Origin: Folioceros fuciformis
Taxonomy: Eukaryota
Assembly: GCA_049999805.1 (NCBI GenBank)
Contig: JBNGIO010006236.1
Location: forward strand, 168,164 to 203,631
Direction: 5' to 3'
Length of the DNA: 35,468 nucleotides
Below, piece after piece: positions 7,401 to 34,235 of the stretch. The notes beneath the pieces are model-generated. The model ran no database searches and was not told the DNA's origin. It was given only the letters and a program-made list of their open reading frames with translations. A program made the translations under genes and the position numbers. Positions within the stretch are counted from its first letter, which is position 1; each line of letters opens with the position of its first letter.

Positions 7401-8353
7401 CAGGCTATGCACAGTGTGAAGAAGGTGCAAAGTCGATGCAGATCTATCTCCAGATGAAGCAGGAAGGCTTGAGACCAAACGAAGCCACCTTTCTGTGTGC
7501 TCTGAAGGCCTGCAGCATGACGGGATCCCTAGATAGCTGCTCACAGATCCATCAAGACTGGACAGAATCGGGACTCCCTTGGAGCACTGATCTGGCCACC
7601 ACCCTGGTCCACGCCTACGGGAAGTGCGGGGACATGGTTCGTGCCCGCACAGTGTTCAACAGCGCTGAGGATCCTAATATCGCTCTTTGGAACTCACTTA
7701 TCACAGGATACTCCGCGCAAGGAGAGTGCCAACAGTGCTTCCAATGTTTGCACGACATCAAGCAGGCGGGACTTCATCCCACCGGCGCCACATACGCTCC
7801 CATCCTTGCTGCGTGCAGCCACGCCGGCCTGGTGGAGGAGGGCCGCAACCACTTCCAGTCCATGACGCAGCATCACGGCATCACTCCAACCATCGAGCAC
7901 TACGGCAGCATGGTCGATCTCTTCGCCCGCGCCGGGCTCTTCGATGACGCCGAAGCCCTGCTCTCCACCATGCCCATGCAGCCTGACCTCCCGATGTGGT
8001 CCTCCCTTCTGGCCGCATGTCGCATGTCCGGCAACATCCCTCTCGCCAGCCGCGCGTTCCAACGCGCTGTCATCCTCGCTCCCTCCTCCAGCTCTCCGTA
8101 CATCCTCATGTCCCAGATCTACGCTCAGGCCGACATGCGAGAGGAAGCCGAGAAGGTGGAGCGTCTAAGACAGCGCACTGGCGCCTGGAAGGAACCCGGA
8201 ACCAGCTGGTTGGAGGACGCCGGTCTCATGCATGCGTTTGTGGTCGGCGATCGCCGGCCGCGATGCCAACGGGATGCGCCTGTCTCCGGGCTCTTCAAAC
8301 TGTCGAATGAAGCGGAAGACACAACCTCGGGGAGGCGAATGAAACGTGGATAA
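4451..8353 (+). CDS. PLS-class pentatricopeptide repeat protein, E+ subclass (PG box, no catalytic DYW), with seven elongated L motifs; putative organellar editing specificity factor
   Basis: Single 1300-aa ORF with 10 P-L-S triplets (VVSWNALIAGY / TFVSVLKAC / LVDMYAKCGSM), the last being P2-L2-S2 (ACSHAGLVEEG, EHYGSMVDLFARAG), then E1, E2 and PGTSWLE...HAFVVGD. Ends before any HxE/CxxC. The start Met is uncertain. Confidence 0.93.
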   Translation: MRFMWILLQRCVQRTALAMGKQHPWGANSGFHANMSVSFRSTWHSVQGKGGVREESGQSWSTLISRYVKDGKLRESITSYKHMVNQGMKPDKYTILNLLKACGSLADLRLARWMHNEVAKYKWDTDLFVGNSVVAMYAKCGSMTDAQHVFDTLCHRNVVSWNALIAGYANQEQGKKALELYSQMQQEGVRASIRTFVSVLQACGSLAATLHGIGGHVNALKGDCLKLGTEVHNEILRRHLQVDNYVGNTLVYMYANCGNLVEAVNVFDTLSHRDVVSWTILMAIYAQQGQGEKALQLYARMQEEGVRPQSRTFVSALKACSNLAASEEAVKVNGKLVKAQWLKKGKGIHADFLQAGSEMDVYVGTTLVDMYAICGSMVDAQKVFDSMPRHDALSWTALIRGYAQQEQGGVIAVQLFADMLKDGVEPNARTFLCVLKSLGSIASMGTASHLTGQSRTSECLQEARQVHAKLVEAGLGVDVFLCNTLIDMYANCGSMEEAKQVFDAMPERDVVSWTTMIGGYAQQGQGETALQVFAKMGEAGVRPNGRTFVSLLKACGSLAVFEQATIVEGLLVKLGSLRMLKAIHEQVIRSGFESDIFVGTSLLGMYVNCGSMVDAVRVFDALPYRDVVSWTAMISGYGQQGQAETALQLFSRMKESGVAPDRWTFTSVLKACGSEATKEQALAVDGQSVKVVCLSKGKIIHAEVLKRDYGLDASVGSGLVTMYVNCGSMSDAWLVFESLPEQTVVSWNAMLAGYAEQDEGQNTLTLFNQMLEANVRPDNWSFVSTLRACSSLAATEQATIFNGETVKLGSLRKGRWVHSQAVNRGLERDMFVGTALIDMYAKCGSMRDAQHVFDGLPHRDVVSWNALILGYAQQMDGTRGLKLYAEMQAEGVRPDGWTFVSVLKACGSLSDTETAKGRKLLKPESMQKVKEIQAETVRRGLASNIHVANTLIDTYADCGYMEDAEHVFESLDRRDVVSWNAMMAGYAQCEEGAKSMQIYLQMKQEGLRPNEATFLCALKACSMTGSLDSCSQIHQDWTESGLPWSTDLATTLVHAYGKCGDMVRARTVFNSAEDPNIALWNSLITGYSAQGECQQCFQCLHDIKQAGLHPTGATYAPILAACSHAGLVEEGRNHFQSMTQHHGITPTIEHYGSMVDLFARAGLFDDAEALLSTMPMQPDLPMWSSLLAACRMSGNIPLASRAFQRAVILAPSSSSPYILMSQIYAQADMREEAEKVERLRQRTGAWKEPGTSWLEDAGLMHAFVVGDRRPRCQRDAPVSGLFKLSNEAEDTTSGRRMKRG

Positions 8354-9384: not shown

Positions 9385-12300
9385 ATGGCTAGCGGTGCTT
9401 CCTTTTTGGGGGAGGCTTCGTTCCCGAGTGCTTCTGTTACAGGAGGGGCCACTGCCCATGGACCCTTGCCTACTCGGTCGGGGAGTAGCAGGGGGCGGCG
9501 GGGGGGAAGGATTCATTCCGGGCCTCGTGCTGCGCACGACACGCAGGAGCAGGCTTGGGGCACTTCTGTGCAGCGGGTTGCGCTCTCGGGGTCTGGAAGG
9601 GGAGGTGGATGCGTGGGAGGAGGAGTATATGTGAGGCCGGGGCCGGGGGCTGGAGTGGCCACCGCTCTGCACCAGACCGAGCATTTGCAAGGAGGCCTCA
9701 GTGCCGAGTTTTGTGGGCGGAGATCGACCAGGCTTGTGTCCAAGTTCCACCATGGCCGCCAGAAGTTGTACCTGGGGAAGCATTCGTCGGAAGCAGATGC
9801 GGCCTTGCAGGAGGTTTTCAGCCTACCGTCTTCAGCTGGGACAGGGTCTTTGCTTAACAGGTGGTGTCACAAGCTTGTTGGGCTGGAGGACTTTCCTTAC
9901 ATGTTGCGGGAACTTGGCAATAAAGGGGAGTGGGAGAAGGCGCTGAAGAGTTTCGACTGGATGGTGTCGCAGCAAAGTATCAGGGGTGAGTGGAGCAAGT
10001 TGGCCAGTATTATGATCTCCACTCTTGGGAGGTTGGGTAAGGTGGATCTGGCTCAGAAGGTGTTTGATAAGGCTGTGGCAGCGGGATTCGGGAAGAACGT
10101 GTATGCCTTTTCTGCCCTTGTTAGTGCGTATGGTCGGAGTGGGAGGTGTAGGGAAGCGCTGGATGTGTTTCAGGCCATGAAGAAAGCTGGATGTCCTCCA
10201 AATTTGATCACGTATAACTCAATTATAGATGCCTGTGGGAAGGGTGGTGTGGATCTGAACAAGGCCCTCGAGATCTTTGATGAGATGCAGAGGGAGGGTG
10301 TCGAACCTGATCGCATCACCTTCAATTCTTTGATTGCTGTTTGCAGCCGAGGCAGTCTTTGGGAGGAGTCGCAAAGAGTCTTCGCTGAGATGCAACGACG
10401 AGGGATTGAACAGGATATTTTCACGTATAATACTTTGGTAGATGCCGTTTGCAAGGGTGGCCAGATGGACATCGCAGCCTCCATAGTAGCAACTATGCGG
10501 CAGAAGGGTATTATGCCGAATGTCGTGACCTACAGTACCATGATCGATGGGTATGGAAAAACTGGGTGTTTCGGCGAGGCCATTAGGGTGTATCATGAGA
10601 TGAAAGATGCTGGGATTCGTCCTGACAGAGTTTCGTATAACACGCTGCTAGATATCTATGCCAAGATGGGCATGTTTGAGGAAGCTCTTACTATTTGCGA
10701 GGAGATGGAGAGAGCGGGCTGGAAAACCGACGTTGTTACTTACAACGCTCTCATTGATGCTTACGGGAAGCAGGGCAAGTATATGGAGGCAGCCAATCTC
10801 TTTAGCAAAATGAAGGACGAAGGCCTCGTCCCAAATGTGCTGACATATTCAGCTTTGATTTATGCATTCTCTAAAGGAGGCCTTCACCGAGAGGCCAGGC
10901 AAGTGTTTGAAGAATTCAGAGATGCAGGGTTGAAGCCAGATGTTGTACTCTATAGTGCTTTGATAGACGTTTTCTGTAAAAGTGGTTTAGTAGAGGAAGC
11001 CGTGCAGTTGCTTGAGGAGATGATGGCCGAGGGCATACAGCCCAACATTGTGACTTATAATTCCTTGATCGATGCCTATGGGCGAAGGGGCCAGGTACGT
11101 GCTTGCTTGGAGCCTATTGGCTGATGTGGAGTCAGGATCTGGTTGATGCGAGCTTCCTGTTCTTTGTTTTAGTTTCTCCCTGAAATTTGATCTAGCAGTT
11201 ACATGCTTTTTCGGACAGCGTTTCGCGATCTGCCAGGCAAAACAGGCCTGTGACCGAATATGTCCGTGGCTTTGGGTCGTGCAGGTTGATCATGCTTTGA
11301 GCACAATGGAGAGGATGAGAGGTGTTGGCATCGTCCCAGATAGTCGGACGTACAATTCAGTCATTAATGCACTTGGCAATGATAGTCTTCAGACACCAGA
11401 GCAGGTGCGGGCTAGGAGTGTAGAATTTGACATTCCACCGGTCCCAAGACCCTTGGATTCACAAGGTGGCCAAGGGGACATCTTGGCAGCCGTTCGAGTT
11501 TTCCATGAGATGCAGGAGCTGGGTGTGAAACCAAACGTAGTGACTTTTTCAGCCATTCTCAACGCGTGCAGGTGAGTTCACATTACCCTTTTGCTACGTG
11601 GTGGGTGCAACATGGTGGTAGCTGCAGACTCATCTGTCTTGTGTGACGTATTTGCTTCTCCACTCCCTGTCCCTGCGTGCAGCCGGTGCGCATCATTTGA
11701 AGAGGCATCCCTCTTGCTCGAAGAAATGCGCCTCTTTGACAGCCGTGTCTATGGAGTAGCTCACGGCTTGTTGATGGGACTGCGGGAGCAGGTTTGGCAA
11801 GAAGCCGAGGCCTTGTTTGATCAGATGTTCTTCATGGATCTTGCTACTGCCGGAGCGTTCTACAACGCCCTGACAGACGTCCTGTGGCATTTCGGTCAGG
11901 TAGTGGTTCGGTCTTCGCAGTTGTGCACTCCTCGCCACCGCCGCTAACCTTTCTTCCATAGTTGCTCACTCCCTCACCTGTGTCATGCAGAGAGAGGGAG
12001 CCCAGAAAGTAGTGATAGCAGCAAAACGACGCCAGGTGTGGGCCAATGCATGGTGGAGGTCCGAGCAGCAATTTTGTCTAGATTTGCATCTGATGTCTGT
12101 GGGAGCAGCTCAAGCCATGCTTCACGTCTGGCTCCTGCACATCCGAGGTCTGTTGTTTGAGGGGCATGAGCTACCGAGATTGTTGAGGTACGTCATGAGA
12201 ACTCTGTAATGTCCAGCTTGTTGAGCTGGATGTCCGACCGACTGACACCATCATGACAACTGGCATGGCAGCATTCTTACAGGGTGGGGTAAGCACAGCA

Positions 12301-13843: not shown

Positions 13844-15163
13844 CTACCAAGGAATGAGGGAACCGAAGAGGAAGTGTTGCATGATGGGGACTTTTTCAAG
13901 AACTTCTGCCTTGTACATTTTCAGCATTCCACTGTTCACCTTGCTCCATGTAGGAACCCCGCTGACATCGTCAATCATCGGAGAGTGCTCAGCGAGATGC
14001 CCCTTCTTAACAGACTTCACAAACTGGACGCAACCAAGGTATAGATATTCCTTGGAAAAGTTTTCAAGAATGTCGGGGTTGTGAATCGACTTAGGCTTCA
14101 TGTACTTGTGATCAATCAGCTGCGAAGATCCGAATACGAAGGGAAGAAAATGATAATCATCCAACCCCCACACTCCGTGCGAGCCTGCAGGCTCCAGCCA
14201 GTATGTTGTCTGCATCTTTCTCATCAGATTCAAGTACGATACCATCACTCTGGAAACAACTGCCTGGAAATCATCAGGTTGGAGCAGCCCGAGCCTGGCC
14301 AGACAGAGCAACCAAGCAGCAAAATTTGCCTCATGACCTGTCCCGTAGTCAATCCTAGTGGCATTCCCAAAGCTGTCAGCAAAGTAGGGGAATATCTCTC
14401 CCACAGCAGCGCGGAGAGACACTGGCAGGATAGACAGCATCAGCTGTGGACCTTGCGCGTCCAACCTAGCATGCCATTCCCTATATGCTGGATTGCCGTA
14501 CCTCACAGGTTGCTGCCTAGGGGGAATCTCATCCACCCACTCGTTCATCACCGACAACACCTTCAGTATGACATTCAGCGTGCGAGACTCCTTGCAGAAA
14601 TCCGAGAGCTTATGACCCTTCATGGACTCGCTGAGCGCTACGATGAATCCTAAAAACGTCTTGCCAGCTTCAGACTGGTGAAAAAGCTCAATGTCCTGCA
14701 TTGATGTGATCCGTTTCCTGGGAGTCTGGAAGGAGTAGGGAGGCTGCACCACCGGCACTTGCCGAGCCTGCGGCACCGGACTGAGAGCCGCCAACGACAT
14801 CCCAGGATGTCCAGGCACAGGAGGAGGCCGCATTGGCCTGACGTTGATGCTCGGCCATGACACCGTGCCTCCCTGCGACCCGTAACCGAACGATGCTGCT
14901 GGCCCGTAGAATTGCCCCGGGCCGCCTGTACTGACATTGGATTCCGGCGAAACCGAGTTCGAGTTCGGATCCGGAGGCTCCTTGAAAACCACAGAACTCG
15001 GCTCGGCAGGAGGTTTGAAACCTTCATCTTCCACCAATTGCCGCTGCTCCCCATCGTCTCCCACCTGAGCTTGCTCCCCGCCGGAGTCGGATCGTGCAGG
15101 AGGGCCCGGCGCAGCAGACGGAGAGGCCGGGGATGCAGCATCGCTAATGCCGGGACTGTCCAT
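13844..15163 (-). CDS. PTPA: Serine/threonine-protein phosphatase 2A activator (phosphotyrosyl phosphatase activator)
   Basis: Motifs RYGNPAYREWH, SFGNATRIDYGTGHE, LEPAGSHGVWGLDDYHFLPFVFGSSQL, GMLKMYKAEVLEKVPIMQHFLFG. First ATG at 15163 (gccATGG). Pro/Ser-rich N-terminal extension. May extend to a small terminal exon at 13700-13658 (see findings). Confidence 0.93.
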   Translation of the reverse strand: MDSPGISDAASPASPSAAPGPPARSDSGGEQAQVGDDGEQRQLVEDEGFKPPAEPSSVVFKEPPDPNSNSVSPESNVSTGGPGQFYGPAASFGYGSQGGTVSWPSINVRPMRPPPVPGHPGMSLAALSPVPQARQVPVVQPPYSFQTPRKRITSMQDIELFHQSEAGKTFLGFIVALSESMKGHKLSDFCKESRTLNVILKVLSVMNEWVDEIPPRQQPVRYGNPAYREWHARLDAQGPQLMLSILPVSLRAAVGEIFPYFADSFGNATRIDYGTGHEANFAAWLLCLARLGLLQPDDFQAVVSRVMVSYLNLMRKMQTTYWLEPAGSHGVWGLDDYHFLPFVFGSSQLIDHKYMKPKSIHNPDILENFSKEYLYLGCVQFVKSVKKGHLAEHSPMIDDVSGVPTWSKVNSGMLKMYKAEVLEKVPIMQHFLFGSLIPW

Positions 15164-22143: not shown

Positions 22144-25100
22144 ATGGCTGCTGTATTGCAACCGGACCCGTCGAGGACCCAACAAATGGGTGGGTGTGCA
22201 GCGATTCTAGTAGGAGCTCCCGCTCACCTCACTGTAGGGAATCAAGCCCTGGGAAACGAAGCCTCCAGGTGCAGCACTGGTAGGAGCCAAGTATTGCCAC
22301 TTCCGATAGAATGTGTGGGTGGGGTTGGGATTTCCGACGATGGTCGTTGTCAGGAGCAGGAACACTCGTGGCAGCAACTTTTTCTGGATTCTACCATGCG
22401 GCGGGACAACAGACGAGATAAAAAGAGCTCGCTTTGTCCTCACTTCCGGCGTAAAGGGTCCAGAGAGGTCTTGAGCGGAAACAAGTGGAAGCCAGCTTGG
22501 GGTGATGAGCAGCACATTTGCTTTGACATGGAGATGGGTCATGGTGCCTCTCATTCCAAGTCGACACCGTGGGATCAGTGCCAACCTGGCAGGTGTGAAG
22601 GATCGGAAATTGACGTGATGGCTCGAACAGTGAGTATGCTGTGTCAGCAGGGGAAGCTTCCTGAGGCCGTTGGAGCCCTGGAATCTTTGGCGCAGACAGA
22701 CTCTGCCATTTCACACTCTCTGTTTTACGCTGTGCTGAAACTGTGTACAACGAAGAAGGATTTCGTTGTGGGGCGACGGGTTCATGATCTCACTGTCAAA
22801 CTTGGGTACGATTTAAATGCATACTTGGGGAACCATATCTTGCGCATGTATGCATGTGGAGGTAGGTTAGAGGAGGCCATGGATGTGTTCACGAGAGTGC
22901 GCAAACCGAATACCTTCATGTGGTTTTCCATAATTTCTGCACATGTTAAGCACGGGAGATCTAATGAGGCCATACAACTCTACCGCGAGATGCGTAGGTC
23001 AGGAGTCAAGGCGGATGCTCACGTGTTTGCAGCTGCCCTTCAAGCTTGTGCATTTGCTGCCGACTTGGTATCTGGCAGAAGACTGCACTGTGATGTGTTG
23101 CACAGTGGCATCCCTCTTAACTTATTTGTTGGCACATGCCTGGTGGACATGTATGCGAAATGTGGGGAGCTGGAAGATGCACGCAGGGTGTTTGACAGCT
23201 TGGTCTCAAAAAATGTGGTAACGTGGACGGCCCTGCTTGCTGGGTACTCAAATCATGGGTTTGGCCATGACGCTCTTGTTCTGTATGGACAAATGGAGCT
23301 GGAGGGCCTTACTGTGGCTGATCATGTGACGTTTTCTTGCCTTCTAAAGGCCTGTGCAAGCGCTGGAGCCTTACAGAAGGGCAGGCAGGTTCACGCACAG
23401 ATTGTGAAAAGGGGGCAGCTGCATGACATAGTGCTGGGAAACTGCCTGGTGGACATGTATGCAAAATGCGGTGAACTGAAAGATGCACATCAGGTCTTTG
23501 ACAGCTTGGCTACGAAGGACGTGGTGACATGGACGGTGTTGATTGCTGGTTATGTCCAGCAAGGGCTAGGACATGAGGCGCTTGTGTTGTATGGACAAAT
23601 GGAGCAGGAGGGGTTGATTTTGGCTAACCATGTTACTTTTGCTGCCCTTCTGATGGCGTGTGCAACCAGTGGTGCTTTACAGAAGGGCAGGCAGCTGCAC
23701 TCAAAGATTGTTGAAAGACGACTGCTGGATGACATTGTGGTGGCCACGTGCCTGGTGGACATGTATGTAAAATGTGGTGCACTGGAAGATGCACGCCAGG
23801 TTTTTGACTGTTTGACCACGAAGAATGCAGTGACATGGACGGCGCTGATTGGTGGGTATGCACAGCAAGGACTCGGCCAAGAAGCCCTTACTGTGTATGA
23901 ACAAATGGAGGAGGAGGGCCTCATTTTGGCTGATGATATTACATTTGCTTGCCTTCTAAAGGCCTGTGCAAGCACTGGTGCCTTACAGAAAGGCAGACAG
24001 CTGCACTCGCAGATTTTTGAACGAAGTCTGTTGGATAATACAGTGGTGGGCAACTGCCTGGTGGACATGTATGCAAAATGTGGTGAACTGGAAGATGCAC
24101 GCCGAGTTTTTGACAGCTTGGCCTCAAAGAATGTGGTGACATGGAATGCCCTGATTACTGGGTATGCACAGCAAGGATTTGGCCAGGAGGCCCTCGTTGT
24201 ATACGGACAAATGGAGAAGGTGGGCCTCATTTTGGCTGACAAAGTTACATTTGCTTGCCTTCTGAAGGCCTGTGCAAGCACCGGTGCCTTGCAAAAGGGC
24301 AGGCAGCTGCACTCGCAGATCGTGGAAAGAGAACTGTTGGATCAGGACGTGTTGTGCACCTGCCTGGTGGACATGTATGCAAAGTGTGGTGAACTGGAAG
24401 ATGCACGTCAAGTTTTTGACAGCTTGGCCACAAAGAACGTGGTGACATGGAATGCCCTGATTGCCGGGTATGCACAGCAGGGACTCAGCCAAGAGGCGCT
24501 GGTTGTGTATGGACAAATGGAGGAGGAGGGCCTTATTTTGGCTGACAATGTTACCTTTGCTTCCCTTCTGAAGGCCTGTGGAAGCACTGGTGCCTTACAA
24601 AAGGGCAGGCAGCTGCACTCACTAATTGTCGAAAGAGGACTGCTGGATGACGTAGTGGTGGGCACTTGCCTGGTGGACATGTATGCGAAATGTGGTGAAC
24701 TGGAAGACGCACGCCAGGTTTTTGATAGCTTGGCGTCGAAGAATGTCGTGACGTGGAATGCCATGATATCTGGGTATGCAAAGCAAGGACTTGGCCAAGA
24801 GGCACTTGGTTTGTATGGACAAATGGAGGAGGTGGGCCTCATTGAGGCTGACGAAGTTACTCTGGCTTGCCTTGTGAAGGCCTGTGCCAGCACCGGTGCC
24901 TTACAGAAGGGCAGGCAGCTGCACTCGCAGATTGTGGAAACAGGACTGTGGGATCACGAAGTGTTGTGCACCTGCCTGGTGGACATGTATGCAAAATGTG
25001 GTGAACTCAAAGATGCACGTCACGTCTTCGACAGCATGAACACGAAGAACGTAGTGACGTGGACCGCTTTGATATCTGGGTACGGTACTTGTGATGAAGG

Positions 25101-25965
25101 TCACAAGGCACTAGCTTGTTTTGAGGAGATGTTAGCTGCCGGTATTCAGCCCAACGACGCAACCTTTACTTGCCTTTTAGTGGCATGCAGTCATGAGGGA
25201 CTGGTGCACGAGGGTCGCAAGGTCTTAGATTCCATGGCTGAAAAGTATGGCATCAACCCCACGCGCGCGCACTACAACTGCATGATTGATCTTCTTGGGC
25301 GTGCGGGCCATTTGGATGAGGCACAAGAGATGCTACTATCACGCGAGGGCCGAAGTGATGTTGTGGGTTTGACGTCGTTGTTGAACGCCAGCAAAAGTCA
25401 CGGGGATATAGGGAGAGCGATGTGGTGTTTTGAAAACATTGTCAGGCTGGATCCCAAGCATGCGCCAGCTTATGTCCTCATGGCCAATGCCTGTGCGGAT
25501 GCAGGTAGGTGGACCGATGTAGACAGGATTGAAACAGAGAGAAGGGCAGCAGGGGCTAACAAGAAATCAGCAGTGGCGACCATTGAGGTGAACCAGCAGG
25601 TCCATAAATTTCAGGTAGGAGCAACGAGAGAGGATATTGCGCTTAAGGTAGAGAGCACGAATGCACGTGTGAAGCAGGAAGGAGGCCACGTACCTCACAC
25701 GAACTTGGTGTTGAAGGCAGTGAGTGAGAAGGAAAAGGAGGATGCGCTTTGTGGGCATGCTGAGAAGTTAGCGCTTGCGTTTGGTCTCTTGAAGACTCCG
25801 GGTGGGACACCTCTGGTGGTAACGAAGAATCTACGCATGTGCAGTGATTGCCACAGTTCCACGGAGATCATGTCAAGGCTTGAAGGAAGAGACATTGTTG
25901 TAAGGGATGGGTATCGCGTGCATCGCTTCGTAGGTGGCTCTTGCAGTTGCAAAGGGCGATCGTAA
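22144..25965 (+). CDS. PLS-class PPR protein with E1-E2 and variant DYW:KP (GRP-type) domain; candidate U-to-C organellar RNA editing factor
   Basis: Single 1273-aa ORF with 9 PLS triplets, E1 and E2. KKSAVATIEV replaces the PG box. Zinc motifs HAEKLA (25756) and CSDC (25840). Ends HRFVGGSCSCKGRS* rather than ...DYW*. Confidence 0.92.
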   Translation: MAAVLQPDPSRTQQMGGCAAILVGAPAHLTVGNQALGNEASRCSTGRSQVLPLPIECVGGVGISDDGRCQEQEHSWQQLFLDSTMRRDNRRDKKSSLCPHFRRKGSREVLSGNKWKPAWGDEQHICFDMEMGHGASHSKSTPWDQCQPGRCEGSEIDVMARTVSMLCQQGKLPEAVGALESLAQTDSAISHSLFYAVLKLCTTKKDFVVGRRVHDLTVKLGYDLNAYLGNHILRMYACGGRLEEAMDVFTRVRKPNTFMWFSIISAHVKHGRSNEAIQLYREMRRSGVKADAHVFAAALQACAFAADLVSGRRLHCDVLHSGIPLNLFVGTCLVDMYAKCGELEDARRVFDSLVSKNVVTWTALLAGYSNHGFGHDALVLYGQMELEGLTVADHVTFSCLLKACASAGALQKGRQVHAQIVKRGQLHDIVLGNCLVDMYAKCGELKDAHQVFDSLATKDVVTWTVLIAGYVQQGLGHEALVLYGQMEQEGLILANHVTFAALLMACATSGALQKGRQLHSKIVERRLLDDIVVATCLVDMYVKCGALEDARQVFDCLTTKNAVTWTALIGGYAQQGLGQEALTVYEQMEEEGLILADDITFACLLKACASTGALQKGRQLHSQIFERSLLDNTVVGNCLVDMYAKCGELEDARRVFDSLASKNVVTWNALITGYAQQGFGQEALVVYGQMEKVGLILADKVTFACLLKACASTGALQKGRQLHSQIVERELLDQDVLCTCLVDMYAKCGELEDARQVFDSLATKNVVTWNALIAGYAQQGLSQEALVVYGQMEEEGLILADNVTFASLLKACGSTGALQKGRQLHSLIVERGLLDDVVVGTCLVDMYAKCGELEDARQVFDSLASKNVVTWNAMISGYAKQGLGQEALGLYGQMEEVGLIEADEVTLACLVKACASTGALQKGRQLHSQIVETGLWDHEVLCTCLVDMYAKCGELKDARHVFDSMNTKNVVTWTALISGYGTCDEGHKALACFEEMLAAGIQPNDATFTCLLVACSHEGLVHEGRKVLDSMAEKYGINPTRAHYNCMIDLLGRAGHLDEAQEMLLSREGRSDVVGLTSLLNASKSHGDIGRAMWCFENIVRLDPKHAPAYVLMANACADAGRWTDVDRIETERRAAGANKKSAVATIEVNQQVHKFQVGATREDIALKVESTNARVKQEGGHVPHTNLVLKAVSEKEKEDALCGHAEKLALAFGLLKTPGGTPLVVTKNLRMCSDCHSSTEIMSRLEGRDIVVRDGYRVHRFVGGSCSCKGRS
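23125..25050 (+). repeat. Coding tandem array of 306-bp (102-aa) S-P-L units, about 6.3 copies
   Basis: Anchor TGCCTGGTGGACATGTATG recurs at 23137, 23443, 23749, 24055, 24361, 24667 and 24973, an exact 306 period. Confidence 0.97.
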
Positions 25966-26894
25966 GGATCATGAAGGAGGAGGCAGTGTCATCTGACTGG
26001 GTCGTGAAGTTGGTCGAGCCCGATAGCGAGGCACAGGCAGCTGTAGGAGATTAGGGGTTGGAGGTGCAGGCCAGGAATTTGGCTGACATGTTCTGGAATC
26101 GGCGCTGCCATTGCTGGATTGAACTTGTAGCTGTGGCAGGCAGTGTCCCAGGCGGGTGCCGCGCTGTGAACATCCCAAGTATGTATTTCCCTTCGTGTTG
26201 CAGGGCCACATCGGCGGTGTCCATCCCTACCATTCCGGTGTGTTTCGGCCTCTCCTCTCGTTTCTCCTCCTCACAGTTGCTGTGGAAGCTCCTTCTGTCT
26301 CCTTTCTCACTCCTGGCAGTCAGTGTTGACATGATGCTCGATCAATTGCAGGACGGAAGCTCTGATTAGTTGAAGGCCTGCGGTGTGATCGAGCTGCGGA
26401 AGCACTAACCCGCCTGATCACACGCAAGGCTCTCCGCAACCAAGTTTCTCCTACTTCTCGCCAACATCTGTTGGATGGCGCTTAGGTTGGCGGATTAGCT
26501 GTCCACATTTGTCTGGTGGCTGTGTGTGCAAAATCGTGGCGAAAGGAAAGATGCTGGATATTTGTGTGCCTGGCCACAACAAGTGGTAACATGCACCACC
26601 ACTCTTGTACATCATACACAATCATGCACATCACATCAGGTAAATGAGTTGGTCTTCTCCTTCAGCTCCGTGCCATAGGTTGTCGTCCTACGAAAGGAGT
26701 TTGATTGCAGCTGATGCTAGACACACTGCCTGATTCAGATCTGCCATGCATTCACTGAGGAGAAGGCGGTAGCAGCAGAATAGACAAAGCTTGGATCGTT
26801 GTGAGGCACGAAGTGAGACAAACCGTGCTCGTATGGACTCTCAGGCTGGGAGGGGTTCGTGATGAGGAGCAGTGGAGTAGATGGCCGTCTGAGG

Positions 26895-27774: not shown

Positions 27775-30700
27775 ATGGCAGCAGACCAGTTCGCTGTGGT
27801 GGCCGGCAACGTGCGGCTGGGCCGCGTGCTGGCACCGGCCTTGGACAAGGTGATCAAGAATACGTCGTGGAGAAAGCATGGCAAGCTGGTGCAAGATTGT
27901 AAGCTGGTGCTTGACCGACTAGCATCGTCGGAGGATGCAGCGGCTCCTGCTACACCTCCGGCTACTCCTGCCACTGAGAAGCCAGTGCAGCAGCAAAACG
28001 GGGACTCTGGCGTCCACGCCCCTGCTGCGGCTGTTGACAGTCCTCTCTTCGATGGCAACCTCCCTTTTAGTCCAGCCGACGCGGAGATGATTTTGCAGCC
28101 CTTGTTTTCGGCCTGCGACACCTTGTCTATCAAGGTGGCAGAGCCGGCTTTGGATTGTTTCCAGAAGTTGATAGCTCATGGGCATCTGCGGGGGGAGATG
28201 GATGCTGGAGAGGGTGTGGAAAGCAAGCTCCTTTTGCAGGCGATGGATTCTGTGTGCAGATGTTATGATCTGGGGGATGAGAACGTCGAGCTCCTCGTCC
28301 TCAAGACTTTGCTCTCAGCAGTGACATCCACGTCGTTACGGGTGCACGGGGACTCCCTCCTTAAGGCTGTGAGGACTTGTTACAACATCTATCTGGGCAG
28401 CAAAGTGCCGGTCAATCAAACAACTGCCAAGGCCTCTCTGACGCAAATGCTGGTGATTGTCTTCAGGAGGATGGAAGCCGACTCCTCGACCATACCGGTC
28501 CATCCAATTGTAGTGGCTGATCTGATGGAACCTGCAGAGAGGTCGAATTCCGACACCAATGTTGTGCAGTTTGTCCAAGGTTTCATCACGAAAGTGGTGC
28601 AGGACATTGAAGTGGTTCTTAGCCCGTCCCCGTCACTCAGATCTCAGAGGCATGATGGAGCCTTTGATGTGAAAGCAAGCGATGGCACCAATCCCACTGA
28701 CATATTGGAGTCCACCGACAGAGATATGTTGGATGCAAAGTATTGGGAAATCAATATGTTCAAGAAGGCTGTAGAGGACAGGAAAGGCGAGCTTGTGGAA
28801 GGGGATGGAGATAAGGATGGGGATCTGGAAGTTTTGATCACTAACAAACTTCGGAGAGATGCTTTTCTTGTCTTTCGAGCTCTCTGCAAGTTGTCTATGA
28901 AGAACCCTCCTCAGGAAGGTGCCACTGACCAATTCTCCATGCGTGGGAAAATCATAGCTTTGGAGCTGCTGAAAATATTGTTGGAGAATGCTGGAGCTGT
29001 GTTCCGCACCAGTGAGAGGTGAGGCAGGAGTCCTGTATTCGTGCATGCAAATGGAAACTGACAACAGCTCATGCTCTCTCTCGTGCATTTGCTGCTGTGT
29101 CTGATGGTCTGTCAGTCTTGCAGGTTCTTGGGAGCTATCAAGCAGTATCTGTGCCTGTCGCTTCTAAAGAACAGTGCATCATCATTGATGAACATCTATC
29201 AGCTCTCTTGTTCAATCTTCATGAGTCTGGTATCCAGATTCAGGGCCGGTCTTAAAGCTGAAATAGGAGTCTTCTTCCCCATGATAGTTTTGCGAGTGTT
29301 GGAGAATGTGGGGCATCCGAACTATCACCAGAAAATGATTGTCCTTCGCTTCTTGGAGAAGCTCTCTGTGGATCCACAGATTCTGGTAGATATATTTGTC
29401 AACTATGACTGCGATGTTGACTCCTCCAACGTCTTTGAAAGGTAAATCTATGAGTTTCATTGCCTTCACTTCAGATCAAGAAGACGTTTGAAAAATGTTC
29501 ATGAATTGGTCCATTTTATGTGCAGATTGGTCAATGGGCTTCTGAAAACTGCCCAAGGGGTTCCTCCAGGTGCAGAGACAACTTTGTCACCACTCCAAGA
29601 TTCGTTTTTGAAGCTTTCTGCCATGAAATGTTTGGTGGGGGTTCTGCGATCGATGGGGGACTGGATGAACCGCCAGTTACGACTGTCAGATTCTCCATAC
29701 CTTAAGGCCCCAGATTCTGAGGACACCACCGCTGTGGAATCTTTGCCATCAGTTTTGACAACTGTGCAGGAAGGTGGGGAGGAAAGCGGTGAGAGTACTG
29801 AGAATGGGGGTGAAACATCGGAAGCTGCAACTTTCGAACAAAGGCGTGCCTACAAGTTGGAGTTTCAGGCAAGCAGAAATTGTGGTTAGATCATTTGTCT
29901 TTGCATTAGCTTAGATGATTGTGGAACACTAAGTGAGGTGTGCCTCTGTACAGGAAGGCATATCACTCTTCAACCGCAAGCCTCGAAAGGGGATTGAATT
30001 TCTTATGAAGGCTAATAAGCTGGGGGGAACTCCTGAGGAGATTGCTAACTTCCTGAAAACTGCCTCTGGTCTGGACAAGAACATGATTGGCGATTATCTT
30101 GGGGAAAAAGAGGATTTGTCTCTGAAGGTGATGCATGCGTATGTTGACTCGTTTGATTTCCAAAGTATGGAGTTTGATGAGGCAATACGAGCATTCCTAT
30201 TGGGATTTCGGCTTCCGGGAGAGGCTCAGAAAATTGATCGTATAATGGAGAAATTTGCAGAGCGCTTTTGCAAGTGCAACCCTAAATTCTTCACAAGTGC
30301 TGACACGGCTTATGTCCTTGCCTACTCCGTTATAATGCTTAACACGGATGCCCATAATCACATGGTGAAGAATAAGGTGAGTTTCTTGTTCTGAGTCGTT
30401 AGTGTATTGCAGCCAGTGAAGCTTGAATCAGAGCCTGAATGTCATCCTGCGCAGATGTCCAAAGCAGAGTTCATAAGAAACAATCGAGGGATTGATGACG
30501 GGAATGACTTACCAGAAGAGTTTATGGGCGCTCTGTATGATCGTATTGTCTCAAATGAGATAAAAATGAAGTCAGACACACCCTTCGTACCAGAGAAGCA
30601 GCCTACTAATTTGAACAGGATATTAGGTCTTGACAGCATACTAGGTCTTGTCATGCGGAAGCCAAGGGAGGAAAAGGTTCTCGAGACAAGTGATGATGTT

Positions 30701-33700
30701 ATAAAACACATGCAAGAACAATTCAGAGCAAAGGCTGGTCGTTCAGAGTGAGTGCATCATATTCAGGTGGAGATTGCTGCCTGTTTCTGACATTGCACCC
30801 TGAAATGTTTGAGTAACACTGGTTCTTTGATGTCAACATGCAGGTCAGTCTACTATGCTGCTTCAGATGTTGATATCTTAAGGCCGATGGTGGAGGTGTC
30901 TTGGGCTCCCATGCTTGCTGCTTTTAGTGTTCCCCTGGATCAAAGTGATGACGAGGTTGTAACCTATCAATGTCTTGAAGGTTTCCGGCATGCAGTTCAC
31001 ATCACTGCAGTCATGTGCATGAAGACTCAGCGTGATGCCTTTCTCACTTCGCTGGCAAAGTTCACATCTCTCCACTCAGCAGCTGATATCAAGCAAAAGA
31101 ACATTGATGCCATAAAGGCAAGTAGCAATCTCATGATTCTCAGAAGTAGCAACCTGATGGTTGTAAGCAGTCATTGTTTGGCACCTGGTCTACTGTCACA
31201 TGGCTTTCTAGAGATGCTGTCAGTTTGCATCTGGCGAGCAGGCTACCTTGTGCAGAAGCTAACGTATTACTCTGGTGACTGCTTGCAGGCCATCATTGCT
31301 ATCGCAGATGAAGATGGGAACTATTTGCAGGATGCCTGGGAGCATATCCTGACTTGTGTCTCTCGGTTTGAGCATCTTCACCTTATTGGTGAAGGGGCCC
31401 CACCTGACGCAACCTTTTTTGCAGCACCTCAGAGCGAGGCAGAGAAGCGGCAGATGCTAAAAACTCCTGTACTTCCAGTCTTGAGGCGGAAGAATCCTGG
31501 CAAACTTCAGTATGCTGCTGCTGCAGCCAGGCGAGGATCTTATGACAGTGCTGGAGTTGGCGGGCATGCTGCAGGGGTGGTCACAACAGAGCAGATGAAC
31601 AATCTAGTATCCAACTTGAACATGCTGGAGCAGATCGACAGCTTTGAGATGAATCGCATTTTTACCCGCAGTCAAAAGCTGAAGGGTGATGCCATTGTTG
31701 ACTTTGTAAAAGCACTTTGCAAGGTCTCCATGGAAGAACTGAGATCGCCCAGTGACCCACGTGTCTTCAGTCTGACAAAAATTGTTGAAATATCGTAAGG
31801 AATGCAACTTGGTTTGATCTTTTTCCTGCTGTTTGATAGAGCTTGTGGTCCAGAGACGAATTGATTCTCTGACCCTGACTGCTGAATGTTGTTCTGTTTC
31901 GTTTCTTTTTCTTTCGTAGGCACTTCAACATGACCAGAATAAGGCTTGTCTGGTCGCGAATTTGGAGTGTGTTGTCTGATTACTTCGTCATTCAAGGCTG
32001 TTCCGAAAATCTCTCTGTTGCTATGTATGCAATGGATTCCTTAAGACAATTGGCTATGAAATTCTTGGAGCGTGAGGAGCTCTCAAATTACAATTTTCAG
32101 AACGAGTTCATGAAGCCTTTTGTCATTGTCATGCGAAAGAGCAGTTCTGTGGAGATTCGGGAGCTTATAATACGCTGTGTTTCCCAAATGGTTTTTGCGC
32201 GGGTTGGAAGTGTGAAGTCAGGGTGGAAGATCATGTTCATGGTACAGTGTTTTCCGGTGCACTTACTACTGTGATTGTTTTTTAAGTGGAGTCTGGAGGC
32301 TGATGTTGACTCTTTCTGCTATTTTGGCTTGCAGGTTTTCACAACTGCTGCCACTGATGACCATAAGACGATCGTGCTACTGGCCTTTGAAACCATTGAG
32401 AAGATTGTCCGGGAATATTTCCCATATATAACTGAGACGGAGACTACAACATTCACGGATTGTGTGAATTGCCTCATTGCATTCACAAATAGTCGGTTCA
32501 ACAAGGACGTTAGCCTTAATGCCATTGCCTTTCTCCGATTCTGCGCCTTGAAATTGGCTGAGGGAGAACTCGGTTCTTCTGCTCAGTACAAAGAGAGTAA
32601 ACTGGCCAAGTCTTCCGGCATCTCCCCACGACTGTCAACAGAGTCCCCTACATTTACAGACAAGGATGATCATCTTTACTTTTGGTTCCCGTTGCTGGCA
32701 GGTATGCTTTGGGTAGTGAATGATGTTTAATGGGGTTGATGCAGGCTGGTTGTAGGAACATTCAGCCCTAGTTGTGAAGATCTTGTATGAGCTGAACAAC
32801 CTGCTGTGTGCAGGTCTATCTGAACTGACTTTTGACCCCCGACCCGACATTCGCAAAAGTGCGTTGGAGGTGCTTTTCGACACCCTTCGTTATCACGGAC
32901 ATATGTTCTCTTCTGGACTATGGGAGCGTGTTTTTGATTCGGTTCTATTTCCTATTTTTGATCATGTACGCCGAGCAACTGAGCCTGCAGCCTTGAGGCA
33001 GCAGCTGGAGGGTACCTCAGAGAAGGAAGCTGATGAAGTGGAAATGGATGCTTGGCTTTATGAAACTTGCACATTGGCTCTACAGCTCGTGGTGGATCTA
33101 TTTGTGAAATTTTACCCTGTAGTATGTACATTGCTGGGGAAAATCTTATCATTGTTGACTGGGTTCGTCAAAAGGCCACATCAGAATCTAGCAGGAATTG
33201 GAGTGGCTGCCTTTGTGAGGTTGATGAACAATGCTGGAAGTCTGTATACGGACGAGAACTGGGAAGAATCCTTGACAGCTTTGAAAGAAGCCGCTGTGGA
33301 CACCCTACCTGATTTGTGGAAGATGGTTGGAGTTTCGGTGTTTCCCATCTCTGCAGAGAAGGCAGTGGGAAGCAATGGAACCGGTACTGGTGAATCACTT
33401 GTCTCCGAAAATCACCTGGCAAATTTACAACTGTTTATTGCAGATGCAAGGTCTCGTGTTGCCGTTCAGACTCTGATCGTACAGGTAGGTGATTGTGCGA
33501 GGTGTCCATATCATTTGCATGATTGTCCTGGTGCTCTTTTTGATGTATCGGACAAGAGCTCTGAGTTGGTGGGTTGTGAGGGGTAGTGCGTTAATCAATA
33601 ATTCAATGTCTGTGCAGGCTGCCAATGAAATCTATGCCAAGCATGTAGTTCAACTACAGCCAGGTCACACGATGCTGCTGTTGGACACACTTCATATTGT

Positions 33701-34235
33701 GGCAAGGCATGCGCACAAACTGAATGGTGACCGAGAGCTTCGAACAAGACTGCATCCTCTGCGACAAAAGACACAGTTGCCGGATCCACCACTACTGCGC
33801 CTGGAAAATGAGGTTTATCAGGACTATCTGACAATGTTGCAGAACCTACGGGTGGATAAGCCTGACCTTGCAAAAGCAGTGGAGGTAGAGGTCCGCCTTG
33901 TGGAGATATGCGATGAGGTATTGAGATTGTACATTGATACTTCTGCAATTCGCACAGCTGACGATACAGTTGAGAATGGAAAGATAACGCAGCCATGTTG
34001 GCCTGTCCCTCTTGGGTCTGCTAGACGCCGAGAACTCTTGGCAAGAGCCCCGTTAGTGGTAGCAACCCTTCACGCTGTTAGTAACCTTAGAGACTCGTCT
34101 TTGGAGAGGCATCTTGTCCGCTTTTTCCCTCTTCTGGCTAAGCTAGTAGGCTGTGAACATGGATCCCCGGATGTGCAGTTAGCGCTGAGTGACATGTTTA
34201 CGTCCTGGATAGGACCCATATTGTTACAGGCTTGA
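27775..34235 (+). CDS. Brefeldin A-inhibited ARF guanine-nucleotide exchange factor (BIG1-4 clade, BIG2-like), 11 exons
   Basis: Exons 27775-29018, 29124-29441, 29526-29868, 29954-30376, 30455-30747, 30844-31117, 31289-31794, 31920-32241, 32335-32701, 32814-33484, 33618-34235. DCB, HUS box (FVNYDCD), Sec7 ([35 protein letters not shown]) and HDS segments ([23 protein letters not shown]). Confidence 0.95.

What the first reader, a model, noticed from the sequence alone, without database searches (positions are those of the whole stretch)
25561..25965. Natural DYW:KP (GRP-type) domain: candidate reverse U-to-C RNA editing enzyme
Seen: KKSAVATIEV in place of KxPGxSWIE, a shortened segment after FQVG (no D..HP), HAEKLA in place of HSEKLA, intact CxxC, and C-terminus SCKGRS in place of SCxDYW. 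Known: this signature set defines the DYW:KP variants found in hornworts, ferns and some lycophytes, the lineages with U-to-C editing; engineered consensus KP domains have been reported to edit U-to-C in heterologous cells. Inference: this is a full-length native reverse editor. It departs from the consensus at both diagnostic prolines (KP->KS, GRP->GRS), which makes it a natural test of whether they matter. The class is known; this protein and its target are probably uncharacterised.
Basis: partly seen in the sequence, partly recalled or inferred. Interest (0 to 1): 0.85.

Follow-up and report, generated by a model that had tools for sequence, protein, structure and literature searches.

The report
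Hornwort-type DYW:KP PPR editing-factor gene
This is an intact plant nuclear gene for an RNA-binding repeat protein ending in the enzyme-domain variant linked to uridine-to-cytidine RNA editing in organelles; it is one more member of a large known family, and its own activity is untested.

Summary
Window 25561-25962 encodes a 134-residue DYW-type deaminase domain. It has KKSAVATIEV where canonical domains have the PG box, and a four-residue gap where they have xHP. It has HAE in place of HSE, an intact CSDC, and ends in KGRS. The domain closes an uninterrupted 1273-aa ORF (22144-25965, +). Its layout is eight P-L-S triplets (the first degenerate), then P2-L2-S2, E1, E2 and DYW.

In trees of 158 and 103 DYW domains it falls with the only four ...GGRP-ending proteins found (UFboot 100 / SH-aLRT 92). 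That group sits inside a clade rich in ...DRH endings and is separated from canonical DYW:PG domains. An AU test rejects grouping it with PG (p 0.0014). It also shows the published GRP-subgroup pair of changes: Lys to Glu after CxxC, and the C-terminal Asp lost.

The classification as DYW:KP, GRP-like, hornwort type is well supported. U-to-C activity is inferred from designer consensus proteins, and the 2025 paper says no natural KP protein has been assayed.

The "two lost prolines" are less special than claimed. The KP proline is absent in 11 of 50 natural clade members, and C-terminal triplets are highly variable.

Verdict: new member of a known kind, of moderate to low interest.

The parts
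22144..25965 (+). Uninterrupted ORF of 1273 codons plus stop: a PLS-class PPR protein with a C-terminal DYW:KP domain.
   Evidence: ORF and translation. (Pfam PPR families, E_motif, DYW_deaminase).
22144..22608 (+). N-terminal region without PPR motifs (residues 1-155). It probably holds the organelle-targeting part. The true start codon was not verified.
   Evidence: residues 71-190 align to residues 60-174 of the GGRP relative P0003 (39.7% identity, E 3e-14), so at least that part is coding. Targeting was not tested.
22609..25359 (+). PPR array (residues 156-1072): one degenerate P-L-S triplet, seven P1-L1-S1 triplets, then P2-L2-S2, 27 motifs in all.
   Evidence: manual motif table anchored on the 102-aa period found. 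(Pfam PPR hits).
23131..25082 (+). Tandem 306-bp repeat (6.4 copies, 81% matches). It is the run of near-identical P1-L1-S1 triplets.
   Evidence: TRF; triplets are 65-85% identical in protein and 76-87% in DNA.
25360..25560 (+). E1 (residues 1073-1106) and E2 (residues 1107-1139) motifs.
   Evidence: Pfam E_motif, residues 1086-1148, 38.6 bits..
25561..25962 (+). DYW:KP deaminase-like domain, 134 residues (1140-1273), GRP-like, ending in KGRS.
25561..25590 (+). KP-type box KKSAVATIEV in place of the PG box. Ser stands where most relatives have the Pro of 'KP'.
   Evidence: Pro in 39 of 50 KP-clade rows, Ala at the next position in 46 of 50.
25756..25764 (+). H1205-A1206-E1207, the HxE part of the zinc and catalytic signature, with the KP-type Ala.
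   Evidence: HAE in 49 of 50 KP-clade rows.
25825..25827 (+). K1228, equivalent to Lys88 of the 133-residue KP numbering. Published work proposes it as the nitrogen donor that cross-links to uridine.
   Evidence: My mapping to the paper's numbering uses the K88/M92 spacing (PMC11845758, PMC9478123); this Lys is present in all 158 rows, PG-type rows included.
25840..25851 (+). C1233-S-D-C1236, the CxxC part of the zinc site. It is preceded by Met1232, the KP-typical 'M92'.
   Evidence: Met in 50 of 50 KP rows, Val in 28 of 32 PG rows.
25951..25965 (+). C-terminal K-G-R-S plus the stop codon, in place of G-D-Y-W.

Best explanation
The feature is the catalytic end of an intact, intronless nuclear gene (22144-25965, +) for a PLS-class pentatricopeptide-repeat RNA editing factor of the DYW:KP kind. 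It belongs to the hornwort-type branch and is closest to the GRP subgroup.

Proposed mechanism. Steps 1 and 4 are inferred from the family. Steps 2 and 3 rest on sequence features shown here plus published work on designer proteins.

1. The protein is imported into a plastid or mitochondrion.

2. Its 27 PPR motifs lie along a single-stranded organellar transcript, one nucleotide per motif, with S2 opposite position -4. The fifth and last residues of the P and S motifs predict the site 5'-YnnAGnUAnAGnYUnAUnAUnAAnU-nnn-[target]-3'.

3. The DYW:KP domain holds zinc through H1205, C1233 and C1236, with E1207 as the proton shuttle. [quoted passage not shown]

4. In the plant this intermediate resolves to cytidine, giving a U-to-C edit.

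Ser for Pro in the KP box and KGRS for GGRP at the end are most likely tolerated natural variation.

The confidence given (0.68) is for the whole statement, native U-to-C activity included. Membership of the DYW:KP clade alone I put at about 0.95.
For: Architecture: Pfam finds PPR families, E_motif (residues 1086-1148) and DYW_deaminase (residues 1181-1271, 110.7 bits).

Fold: the AlphaFold2 model has pLDDT 94.4. Its best Foldseek matches are DYW structures: 9kfx_A (E 5.6e-18, TMq 0.90), then 7o4f, 7o4e and 7w86.

KP signature: the 19 best of 33 hits all carry HAEKLA. Met precedes CxxC in 50 of 50 KP rows against 3 of 32 PG rows. The xHP segment is missing.

Placement:
- In the quick tree of 158 domains, the query and the four GGRP-ending rows form a clade (SH-aLRT 96). 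The 111 PG rows lie behind a branch with support 100.
- In the careful tree of 103 rows, the same five-row clade has 100/92. It sits inside a 29-row DRH-rich clade (98/95) and a 40-row clade (99/88). PG rows have 100/100.
- The AU test rejects the query grouping with 34 PG rows (delta lnL 91, p 0.0014).
- With the diagnostic columns removed the five rows still form one clade (SH-aLRT 89).

Own profile HMMs score the query 211.1 bits for the KP group with the four-residue deletion, 167.7 for the fern-type KP group and 151.1 for PG.

GRP markers named in PMC9478123 (Discussion passage read) are both present: the conserved Lys after CxxC is Glu (K in 45 of 50 KP rows; T, E, E, Q in the four GGRP rows), and the C-terminal Asp is Gly.

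No sign of decay: the query departs at 4 of 58 KP-conserved positions, and 24 of 50 rows depart as much or more.

Activity of the class: designer GRP-based KP2 and KP3 edit U-to-C, and this is abolished by HAA or AxxA mutations (PMC9478123). Lys88 is essential for U-to-C editing (PMC11845758).
Against: No natural DYW:KP protein has a measured activity (PMC11845758, Introduction). Two literature searches found no later report.

The designer GRP proteins were weak (about 26% and 22% in E. coli). In heterologous cells the reaction stalls as a protein-RNA cross-link (PMC9478123, PMC11332814, PMC11845758).

Single substitutions can flip a KP domain towards C-to-U (PMC11845758), so direction cannot be read from class alone.

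The query lacks both prolines and has K131, seen in 0 of 50 relatives.

Lys88 does not discriminate: it is present in all 158 rows, PG rows included.

The GRP sample is only four proteins. My HMMs do not separate GRP from DRH (222.7 against 221.2 bits). The bootstrap of the careful tree had not settled (correlation 0.95).

No target site could be searched for, because no organelle genome is held. The PPR code used is recalled knowledge.
Confidence: 0.68

Rival explanations
1. It is a true member of the KP clade, but it works as a C-to-U editor or in both directions. Its own substitutions (Ser3, K131, Ser134, Gly-Tyr in RDGYRVH) would tip the balance.
For: Designer KP6 edits in both directions in human cells (PMC9478123). 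Single or triple substitutions make it purely C-to-U or purely U-to-C (PMC11845758, Results read). In the paper's 133-residue numbering, as I map it, the query has Gly64 and Val113. These are the states that pushed KP6 towards C-to-U.
Against: Gly64, Val113 and Val119 are invariant in all four GGRP relatives as well. The GRP-based designers KP2 and KP3 showed U-to-C editing only (PMC9478123). The KP6 results come from a fern-type background, which is a different clade in my tree.
Confidence: 0.15
2. It is a young, redundant or decaying paralogue with no editing site of its own. Its ORF is intact only because it is recent.
For: The family is very large: hundreds of short contigs at 90-99% identity cover the domain in each run laid. 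The PLS triplets are unusually alike: best self-identity is 0.84, the highest of the 71 long proteins compared, which suggests recent internal duplication. It lacks two residues that all four closest relatives keep. Its end branch is slightly longer (0.30 against 0.18-0.23).
Against: The frame is open for 3.8 kb. All catalytic and zinc residues are kept. Departures from conserved positions are typical for the clade. Specificity residues differ between the duplicated triplets while the scaffold is kept, as expected of an array under selection for a particular sequence.
Confidence: 0.12
3. It is a canonical C-to-U DYW:PG editing factor whose motifs have merely drifted.
For: It has the same Pfam family and fold. 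It is 45% identical to the synthetic PG-type domain in 9kfx.
Against: The AU test rejects it (p 0.0014). A branch with 100/100 support separates the PG rows. The PG profile scores 60 bits lower than the KP profile. PG, HSE, xHP and DYW are all absent.
Confidence: 0.02

Closest known systems
Natural GRP-type DYW:KP proteins of hornworts (defined in Gerke et al. 2020 and Gutmann et al. 2020, as cited in PMC9478123). Here they are represented by four unnamed database proteins ending in GGRP (P0003, P0005, P0007, P0009).
   Same: 63-70% identity over the domain. One clade (100/92). Shared HAE, Met before CxxC, the four-residue deletion, loss of the conserved Lys after CxxC, and Gly-Arg in place of Asp-Tyr at the end. 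Same PLS-E1-E2 architecture. N-terminal homology to P0003.
   Different: Ser in place of Pro in the KP box. Thr in place of Gly at box position 7. RDGYRVH where three of the four have RDAHRVH. KGRS in place of GGRP. A longer array (1273 aa against 753-950) with much more similar triplets.
Designer consensus proteins KP2 and KP3 (GRP-based; Ichinose et al. 2022, PMC9478123).
   Same: Same subgroup by description. They are the only GRP-type domains with shown U-to-C activity, which depends on HAE and CxxC, and on Lys88 (PMC11845758).
   Different: They are synthetic consensus domains on a three-triplet designer array. Their sequences are in figures and supplements that I could not see, so no direct alignment was made.
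DRH-type DYW:KP proteins of hornworts.
   Same: The GRP-like clade is nested among them in my tree (29-row clade, 98/95). My DRH profile scores the query almost as well as the GGRP profile (221.2 against 222.7 bits).
   Different: DRH rows keep the Lys after CxxC and the C-terminal Asp. Their box is typically KKPAKACIEV.
Canonical DYW:PG cytidine deaminase domains (OTP86 7o4e/7o4f, DYW1 7w86, synthetic PPR-DYW 9kfx).
   Same: Same fold (TMq 0.90 to 9kfx). Same HxE...CxxC and CSC zinc ligands. Same position at the end of a PLS-E1-E2 array.
   Different: PG, HSE, xHP, Val before CxxC and the terminal DYW are all replaced. It is a separate clade. The PG domains catalyse C-to-U deamination.

Membership tests
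DYW:KP domain (candidate U-to-C editing domain) | DYW-family deaminase domain (Pfam PF14432) with the deaminase fold | tested here: met
   110.7 to 115.5 bits against a cut-off of 24; pLDDT 94.4; 9kfx_A E 5.6e-18, TMq 0.90.
DYW:KP domain (candidate U-to-C editing domain) | HxE(x)nCxxC signature intact | tested here: met
   H1205, E1207, C1233 and C1236.
DYW:KP domain (candidate U-to-C editing domain) | Ala (or another small hydrophobic residue) in HxE where PG domains have Ser | tested here: met
   HAE in the query. HAE in 49 of 50 KP-clade rows, and HSE in all 32 rows of the PG-like group, which was itself defined by HSE.
DYW:KP domain (candidate U-to-C editing domain) | N-terminal box of the KP kind (K-P-A-x-A-x-I-E-V), with no Gly of 'PG' and no Ser-Trp | tested here: met
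   The query has KKSAVATIEV. Ala follows the P position in 46 of 50 KP rows and in the query. Gly is there in 28 of 32 PG rows.
DYW:KP domain (candidate U-to-C editing domain) | The literal Pro of the 'KP' pair | tested here: not met
   The query has Ser. The Pro is conserved but not invariant: it is absent in 11 of 50 natural clade members, and P0192 also has Ser. I therefore do not treat it as defining. Membership rests on phylogeny and profiles.
DYW:KP domain (candidate U-to-C editing domain) | Domain of 132-133 residues that lacks the xHP segment of PG domains | tested here: met
   A four-residue gap after FQVG against 9kfx and 7o4e. The domain is 133 residues counted from the second Lys. 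PMC9478123 and PMC11845758 describe 132- and 133-residue KP domains.
DYW:KP domain (candidate U-to-C editing domain) | Met in place of Val before CxxC ('M92') | tested here: met
   The query has KNLRMC. Met in 50 of 50 KP rows against 3 of 32 PG rows.
DYW:KP domain (candidate U-to-C editing domain) | Conserved Lys88 | tested here: met
   K1228 is present. The feature does not discriminate: Lys is there in all 158 rows.
DYW:KP domain (candidate U-to-C editing domain) | Groups with KP and not with PG domains in a DYW tree or by profile scoring | tested here: met
   (AU p 0.0014). The profiles were my own, built from clades of my tree. The published PG/WW/KP profiles were not available.
DYW:KP domain (candidate U-to-C editing domain) | U-to-C editing activity | not testable with these tools
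   Shown only for designer consensus proteins (PMC9478123, PMC11845758).
DYW:KP domain (candidate U-to-C editing domain) | Host lineage with U-to-C editing (hornworts, some lycophytes, ferns) | not tested
   No genome is held for the window. The lineage is inferred. GRP and DRH variants are described for hornworts (PMC9478123). Fern-named rows fall in a different clade. A neighbouring truncated E+-like PPR gene fits the hornwort enrichment reported in PMC13386178.
GRP subgroup of DYW:KP | C-terminal triplet G-R-P | tested here: not met
   The query ends in G-R-S. Gly and Arg are kept and the final Pro is Ser. All four relatives have GGRP. I therefore call it GRP-like.
GRP subgroup of DYW:KP | Loss of the C-terminal Asp, and Glu in place of the conserved Lys after CxxC (the paper's K103) | tested here: met
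   The query has Gly132 and Glu102 in my 134-residue numbering. Lys is there in 45 of 50 KP rows and 31 of 32 PG rows, while the GGRP rows have T, E, E, Q. Mapping this column to 'K103' is my inference, and the numbering may be off by one.
GRP subgroup of DYW:KP | Forms a clade with GRP proteins | tested here: met
   100/92, SH-aLRT 96, and 89 without the diagnostic columns. Only four GRP rows were available, and HMM scores do not separate GRP from DRH.
PLS-class PPR editing factor | (P1-L1-S1)n-P2-L2-S2-E1-E2-DYW arrangement | tested here: met
   (Pfam). (manual motif table covering residues 156-1273 without gaps).
DYW:PG (canonical C-to-U domain) | PG box, HSE, xHP and terminal DYW; groups with PG domains | tested here: not met
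   All four motifs are absent. The AU test rejects the grouping.

The most novel reading that the evidence does not exclude
The three departures at the two ends of the domain (Ser for the KP proline, Lys131, Ser for the final proline) are not neutral. In the DYW fold the two ends pack near the active site. These changes could alter how the Lys1228-uridine intermediate is resolved, or which way the reaction runs. That would make this a natural GRP-type enzyme with different turnover or direction from the consensus designers. Separately, the unusually uniform and recently duplicated PLS triplets could mark a newly born specificity.
Probability: 0.08. Interest if true: 0.6.

Novelty: new member of a known kind. 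Interest (0 to 1): 0.3.

Why it matters
U-to-C RNA editing is the one pyrimidine transition without a characterised natural enzyme. All biochemistry so far comes from consensus designer proteins, which are weak and stall as protein-RNA cross-links outside the plant. Any intact native DYW:KP gene with a readable PPR array is therefore a usable candidate for the first assay of a natural enzyme on its own site. This gene offers a full-length GRP-like example with a long and fairly specific predicted binding site. Hornwort genomes carry many such genes, however, and nothing found here sets this one apart in kind. Its value is as one candidate among many.

Tried and rejected
- **Whole-genome search of the window's own assembly:** no genome is held. 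Paralogue counts and a search of organelle DNA for the predicted target were therefore impossible.
- **Sequencing runs:** no RNA holder is listed. X3 is only guessed to be RNA. Exact contigs cover just the last about 80-110 bases of the ORF plus the 3' flank (X1 record 8, X3 record 24). The rest of the domain is covered by hundreds of short paralogue contigs, so nothing can be said about expression or editing.
- **Metagenome scan with the GRP alignment:** 7 loci, the best 51% identical. No further GRP-type domains were found.
- **Profile search for more GRP proteins (348 hits, 120 listed):** many more DRH-type rows but no further GGRP ending (one search printed the 30 best new rows; one search found 5 GRx rows among 103).
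- **Earlier findings of this scan:** nothing.
- **My GGRP and DRH profiles:** they do not discriminate between the two subgroups.
- **Published DYW:PG, WW and KP profiles and the KP2/KP3/KP6 sequences:** they are in figures or supplements I could not read. The WW class was not tested.
- **Third homologue search:** not used. Searches already showed that no close orthologue is in the collection.
- **Pseudogene reading:** considered and given low weight.
Full report
**Observation.** The stretch 25561-25962 (+) lies in frame with an ATG at 22144. It forms the last 134 codons of an uninterrupted 1273-codon ORF that ends at 25965. The translation reads KKSAVATIEVNQQVHKFQVGATREDIALK...LCGHAEKLALAFG...VTKNLRMCSDCHSSTEIMSR...GGSCSCKGRS. 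Pfam recognises PPR repeats along most of the protein. It also finds an E motif (residues 1086-1148) and DYW_deaminase (residues 1181-1271, 110.7 bits against a cut-off of 24). HMMER alignments to solved PG-type DYW domains (9kfx 1.6e-39, 7w86, 7o4e) show a four-residue gap after FQVG and HAE opposite HSE.

**Anatomy of the gene.** Anchoring on a strict 102-residue period, I divided residues 156-1273 without gaps into these parts:
- a degenerate P-L-S triplet;
- seven P1-L1-S1 triplets;
- P2-L2-S2;
- E1 and E2;
- the 134-residue DYW domain.

The first 155 residues carry no PPR motif. Residues 71-190 align to residues 60-174 of the closest GGRP-ending relative P0003 (39.7% identity, E 3e-14). 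The N-terminal extension is therefore coding and the gene model is plausibly full length. I could not verify which ATG is used, nor organelle targeting.

An AlphaFold2 model of the last 159 residues is confident (pLDDT 94.4, pTM 0.86). Its best Foldseek matches in the PDB are the DYW structures 9kfx_A (E 5.6e-18, TMq 0.90), 7o4f, 7o4e and 7w86. All of these are PG-type; no match was described as KP-type.

**What kind of DYW domain.** The papers give the following, from passages I read in PMC9478123, PMC11845758 and PMC11332814:
- DYW:KP domains are confined to hornworts, lycophytes and ferns.
- They carry a KP pair in place of PG and Ala or Cys in place of Ser in HxE.
- Most lack xHP, so they are 132-133 residues long, and they have Met where PG has Val95.
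- Their C-termini are variable.
- In hornworts they fall into DRH and GRP subgroups.
- GRP proteins have also lost the C-terminal Asp, and they carry Glu for the Lys that pairs with that Asp.

The query shows all of these except the two prolines.

**Relatives.**
- A word-indexed search with the C-terminal 159 residues gave 33 hits among 563 candidates. The 19 best (47-69% identity) all have HAEKLA. The named ones among the rest are PG-type at 43% identity or less.
- An exhaustive HMMER search of 1.84 billion representatives gave 2476 hits at E up to 0.001, of which the best 150 were listed.
- A profile of the query with the four GGRP proteins found 348 more at E up to 1e-20, of which 120 were listed. 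This added many DRH-type rows but no further GGRP ending.

**Trees.**
- *Quick tree.* From 181 proteins with a domain hit I kept the 158 that cover the domain nearly end to end. A quick IQ-TREE puts the query with P0003, P0005, P0007 and P0009 (SH-aLRT 96). This group lies inside a 22-row clade with the deletion (21 HAE rows and one HVE; SH-aLRT 97). The 111 PG rows (109 HSE, 2 HGE) lie behind a branch with support 100.
- *Careful tree.* I used all 73 non-HSE rows plus 30 of the 182 HSE rows drawn at random, leaving out the other 152. With LG+C20+F+G4 and 103 rows, the five-row clade has 100/92. It sits in a 29-row DRH-rich clade (98/95) and a 40-row clade (99/88). The fern-named KP rows (Adiantum, Ceratopteris) form a separate 13-row clade (100/99). 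The main PG clade of 35 rows has 100/100. The bootstrap had not settled (correlation 0.95).
- *AU test.* It rejects the best tree that holds the query together with 34 PG rows (delta lnL 91.0, p 0.0014).
- *Without the diagnostic columns.* After removing the box, the indel region, the x of HxE, the Met column, the Lys/Glu column and the tail (108 of 160 columns kept), the five rows remain one clade at SH-aLRT 89, with no starred support.
- *Own profile HMMs.* Profiles built from my own clades, with the query left out, score it 211.1 bits (KP with the four-residue deletion, 37 rows), 171.5 (mixed HCE and other rows, 18), 167.7 (fern-type KP, 13) and 151.1 (PG, 34). A 4-row GGRP profile and a 13-row DRH profile score 222.7 and 221.2, so profiles do not separate the two hornwort subgroups.

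Assignment to GRP rather than DRH rests on the tree and on the Lys-to-Glu and Asp-to-Gly pair.

**How unusual are KS and GRS?** The figures below come from the 50 other KP-clade rows.
- The 'P' position is Pro in 39 rows. It is Ala or Leu in 3 each, Arg in 2, and Val, Ile and Ser in 1 each (Ser in P0192).
- The last three residues take 28 different forms: DRH 13, DMF 5, GRP 4, and so on.
- The last residue is Pro in 8 rows and Ser in 1.
- All four GGRP relatives keep both prolines, so within that small subgroup the query is the odd one.
- The query also has Lys131, where 40 of 50 rows have Gly and none has Lys.

Across the 58 positions that are at least 80% conserved in the KP rows, the query differs at 4. 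Two of these are the GRP-typical changes. In a leave-one-out comparison, 24 of 50 rows differ at as many positions or more. There is therefore no sign of decay. The prolines are conserved but not diagnostic residues.

**Mechanism.** The following is shown here by sequence:
- a complete PLS-E1-E2 array;
- intact H1205, E1207, C1233 and C1236;
- the CSC and His ligands of the second zinc site;
- Lys1228 at the position that PMC11845758 calls Lys88.

Published work on designer proteins shows that GRP-based KP2 and KP3 convert U to C in E. coli and HEK293T cells. The activity is lost with HAA, AxxA or K88A mutations, and it is detected only after proteinase treatment because enzyme and RNA stay cross-linked (PMC9478123, PMC11332814, PMC11845758).

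The following is inferred for this protein:
- It is imported into an organelle.
- It binds the site 5'-YnnAGnUAnAGnYUnAUnAUnAAnU-nnn-[U], with S2 opposite position -4. This uses the PPR code recalled from Barkan 2012, Takenaka 2013 and Yagi 2013, with L motifs left as n.
- It aminates that uridine.

Lys88 cannot serve as evidence of direction, because the same Lys is present in all 158 rows, PG rows included.

**Rivals.**
- *C-to-U or two-way activity* is the serious one. KP6 works both ways, and a few substitutions switch it (PMC11845758). The query carries Gly64 and Val113, the states that favoured C-to-U in KP6. All four GGRP relatives carry them too, and KP2 and KP3 gave U-to-C only.
- *A redundant young paralogue* is possible, given the very large family and the recent-looking triplet duplications.
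- *A drifted PG domain* is excluded as far as sequence can show.

**Lineage.** No genome is held for the window. The clade that holds the query has no named member. The named fern rows fall elsewhere. The GRP and DRH endings are described for hornworts. I infer a hornwort source with good but not complete confidence. [quoted passage not shown] That fits both the reading and the ordinariness of one more such gene.

**Novelty.** The class, the subgroup and their genome-wide catalogues are in print: Gerke 2020 and Gutmann 2020 as cited, and 22 hornwort genomes surveyed in PMC13386178. The supplementary gene tables of those papers, which I could not see, may already list this gene. Two literature searches found no assay of a natural KP protein, and PMC11845758 states that none exists. 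This is a new member of a known kind. It is useful as a candidate for a first native assay but is not surprising in itself.

Noticed in passing
window 23131-25082 (residues 358-969 of the ORF): The P1-L1-S1 triplets are unusually alike. TRF finds a 306-bp period, 6.4 copies, 81% matches. Triplets are 65-85% identical in protein. The best 204-residue self-identity is 0.84, the highest of the 71 long PPR-DYW proteins compared (group medians 0.28-0.56). Differences include the specificity positions (T/N at the fifth residue, D/N at the last), which suggests recent internal duplication followed by retuning.
   Followed up: partly
window 4451-8353 (+): A second large PLS-class PPR gene (1300 aa). 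It has an E motif and a PG-type box (KEPGTSWLE) but stops about 45 residues later, with no DYW_deaminase hit. This is a truncated E+-like protein, a type reported as enriched in hornworts (PMC13386178).
   Followed up: partly
window 9385-11124 (+), 13844-15163 (-), 27775-34235 (+): Neighbouring genes: a P-class PPR protein; a PTPA phosphatase activator (Pfam 411.7 bits, apparently a single exon); and exons of a BIG/Sec7-type ARF-GEF (DCB and HUS domains). This is ordinary plant nuclear context.
   Followed up: partly
window 25000-25940, runs X1-X4: Each of the four runs laid holds hundreds to thousands of short contigs at 90-99% identity to the E2-DYW region. This points to a very large paralogue family in the organisms coded A and B.
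   Followed up: no
window 25888-26400, run X3: A 1324-base contig of a run guessed to be RNA matches 25888-26236 exactly. Depth then drops between about 26237 and 26360 and returns. This could be a spliced 3' region or a transcript of the minus-strand gene downstream. It is unresolved.
   Followed up: no
alignment of 158 DYW domains: The lysine reported as the only invariant Lys of KP domains (Lys88) is equally invariant in the 111 canonical PG rows. Its presence alone cannot explain the direction of the reaction.
   Followed up: partly
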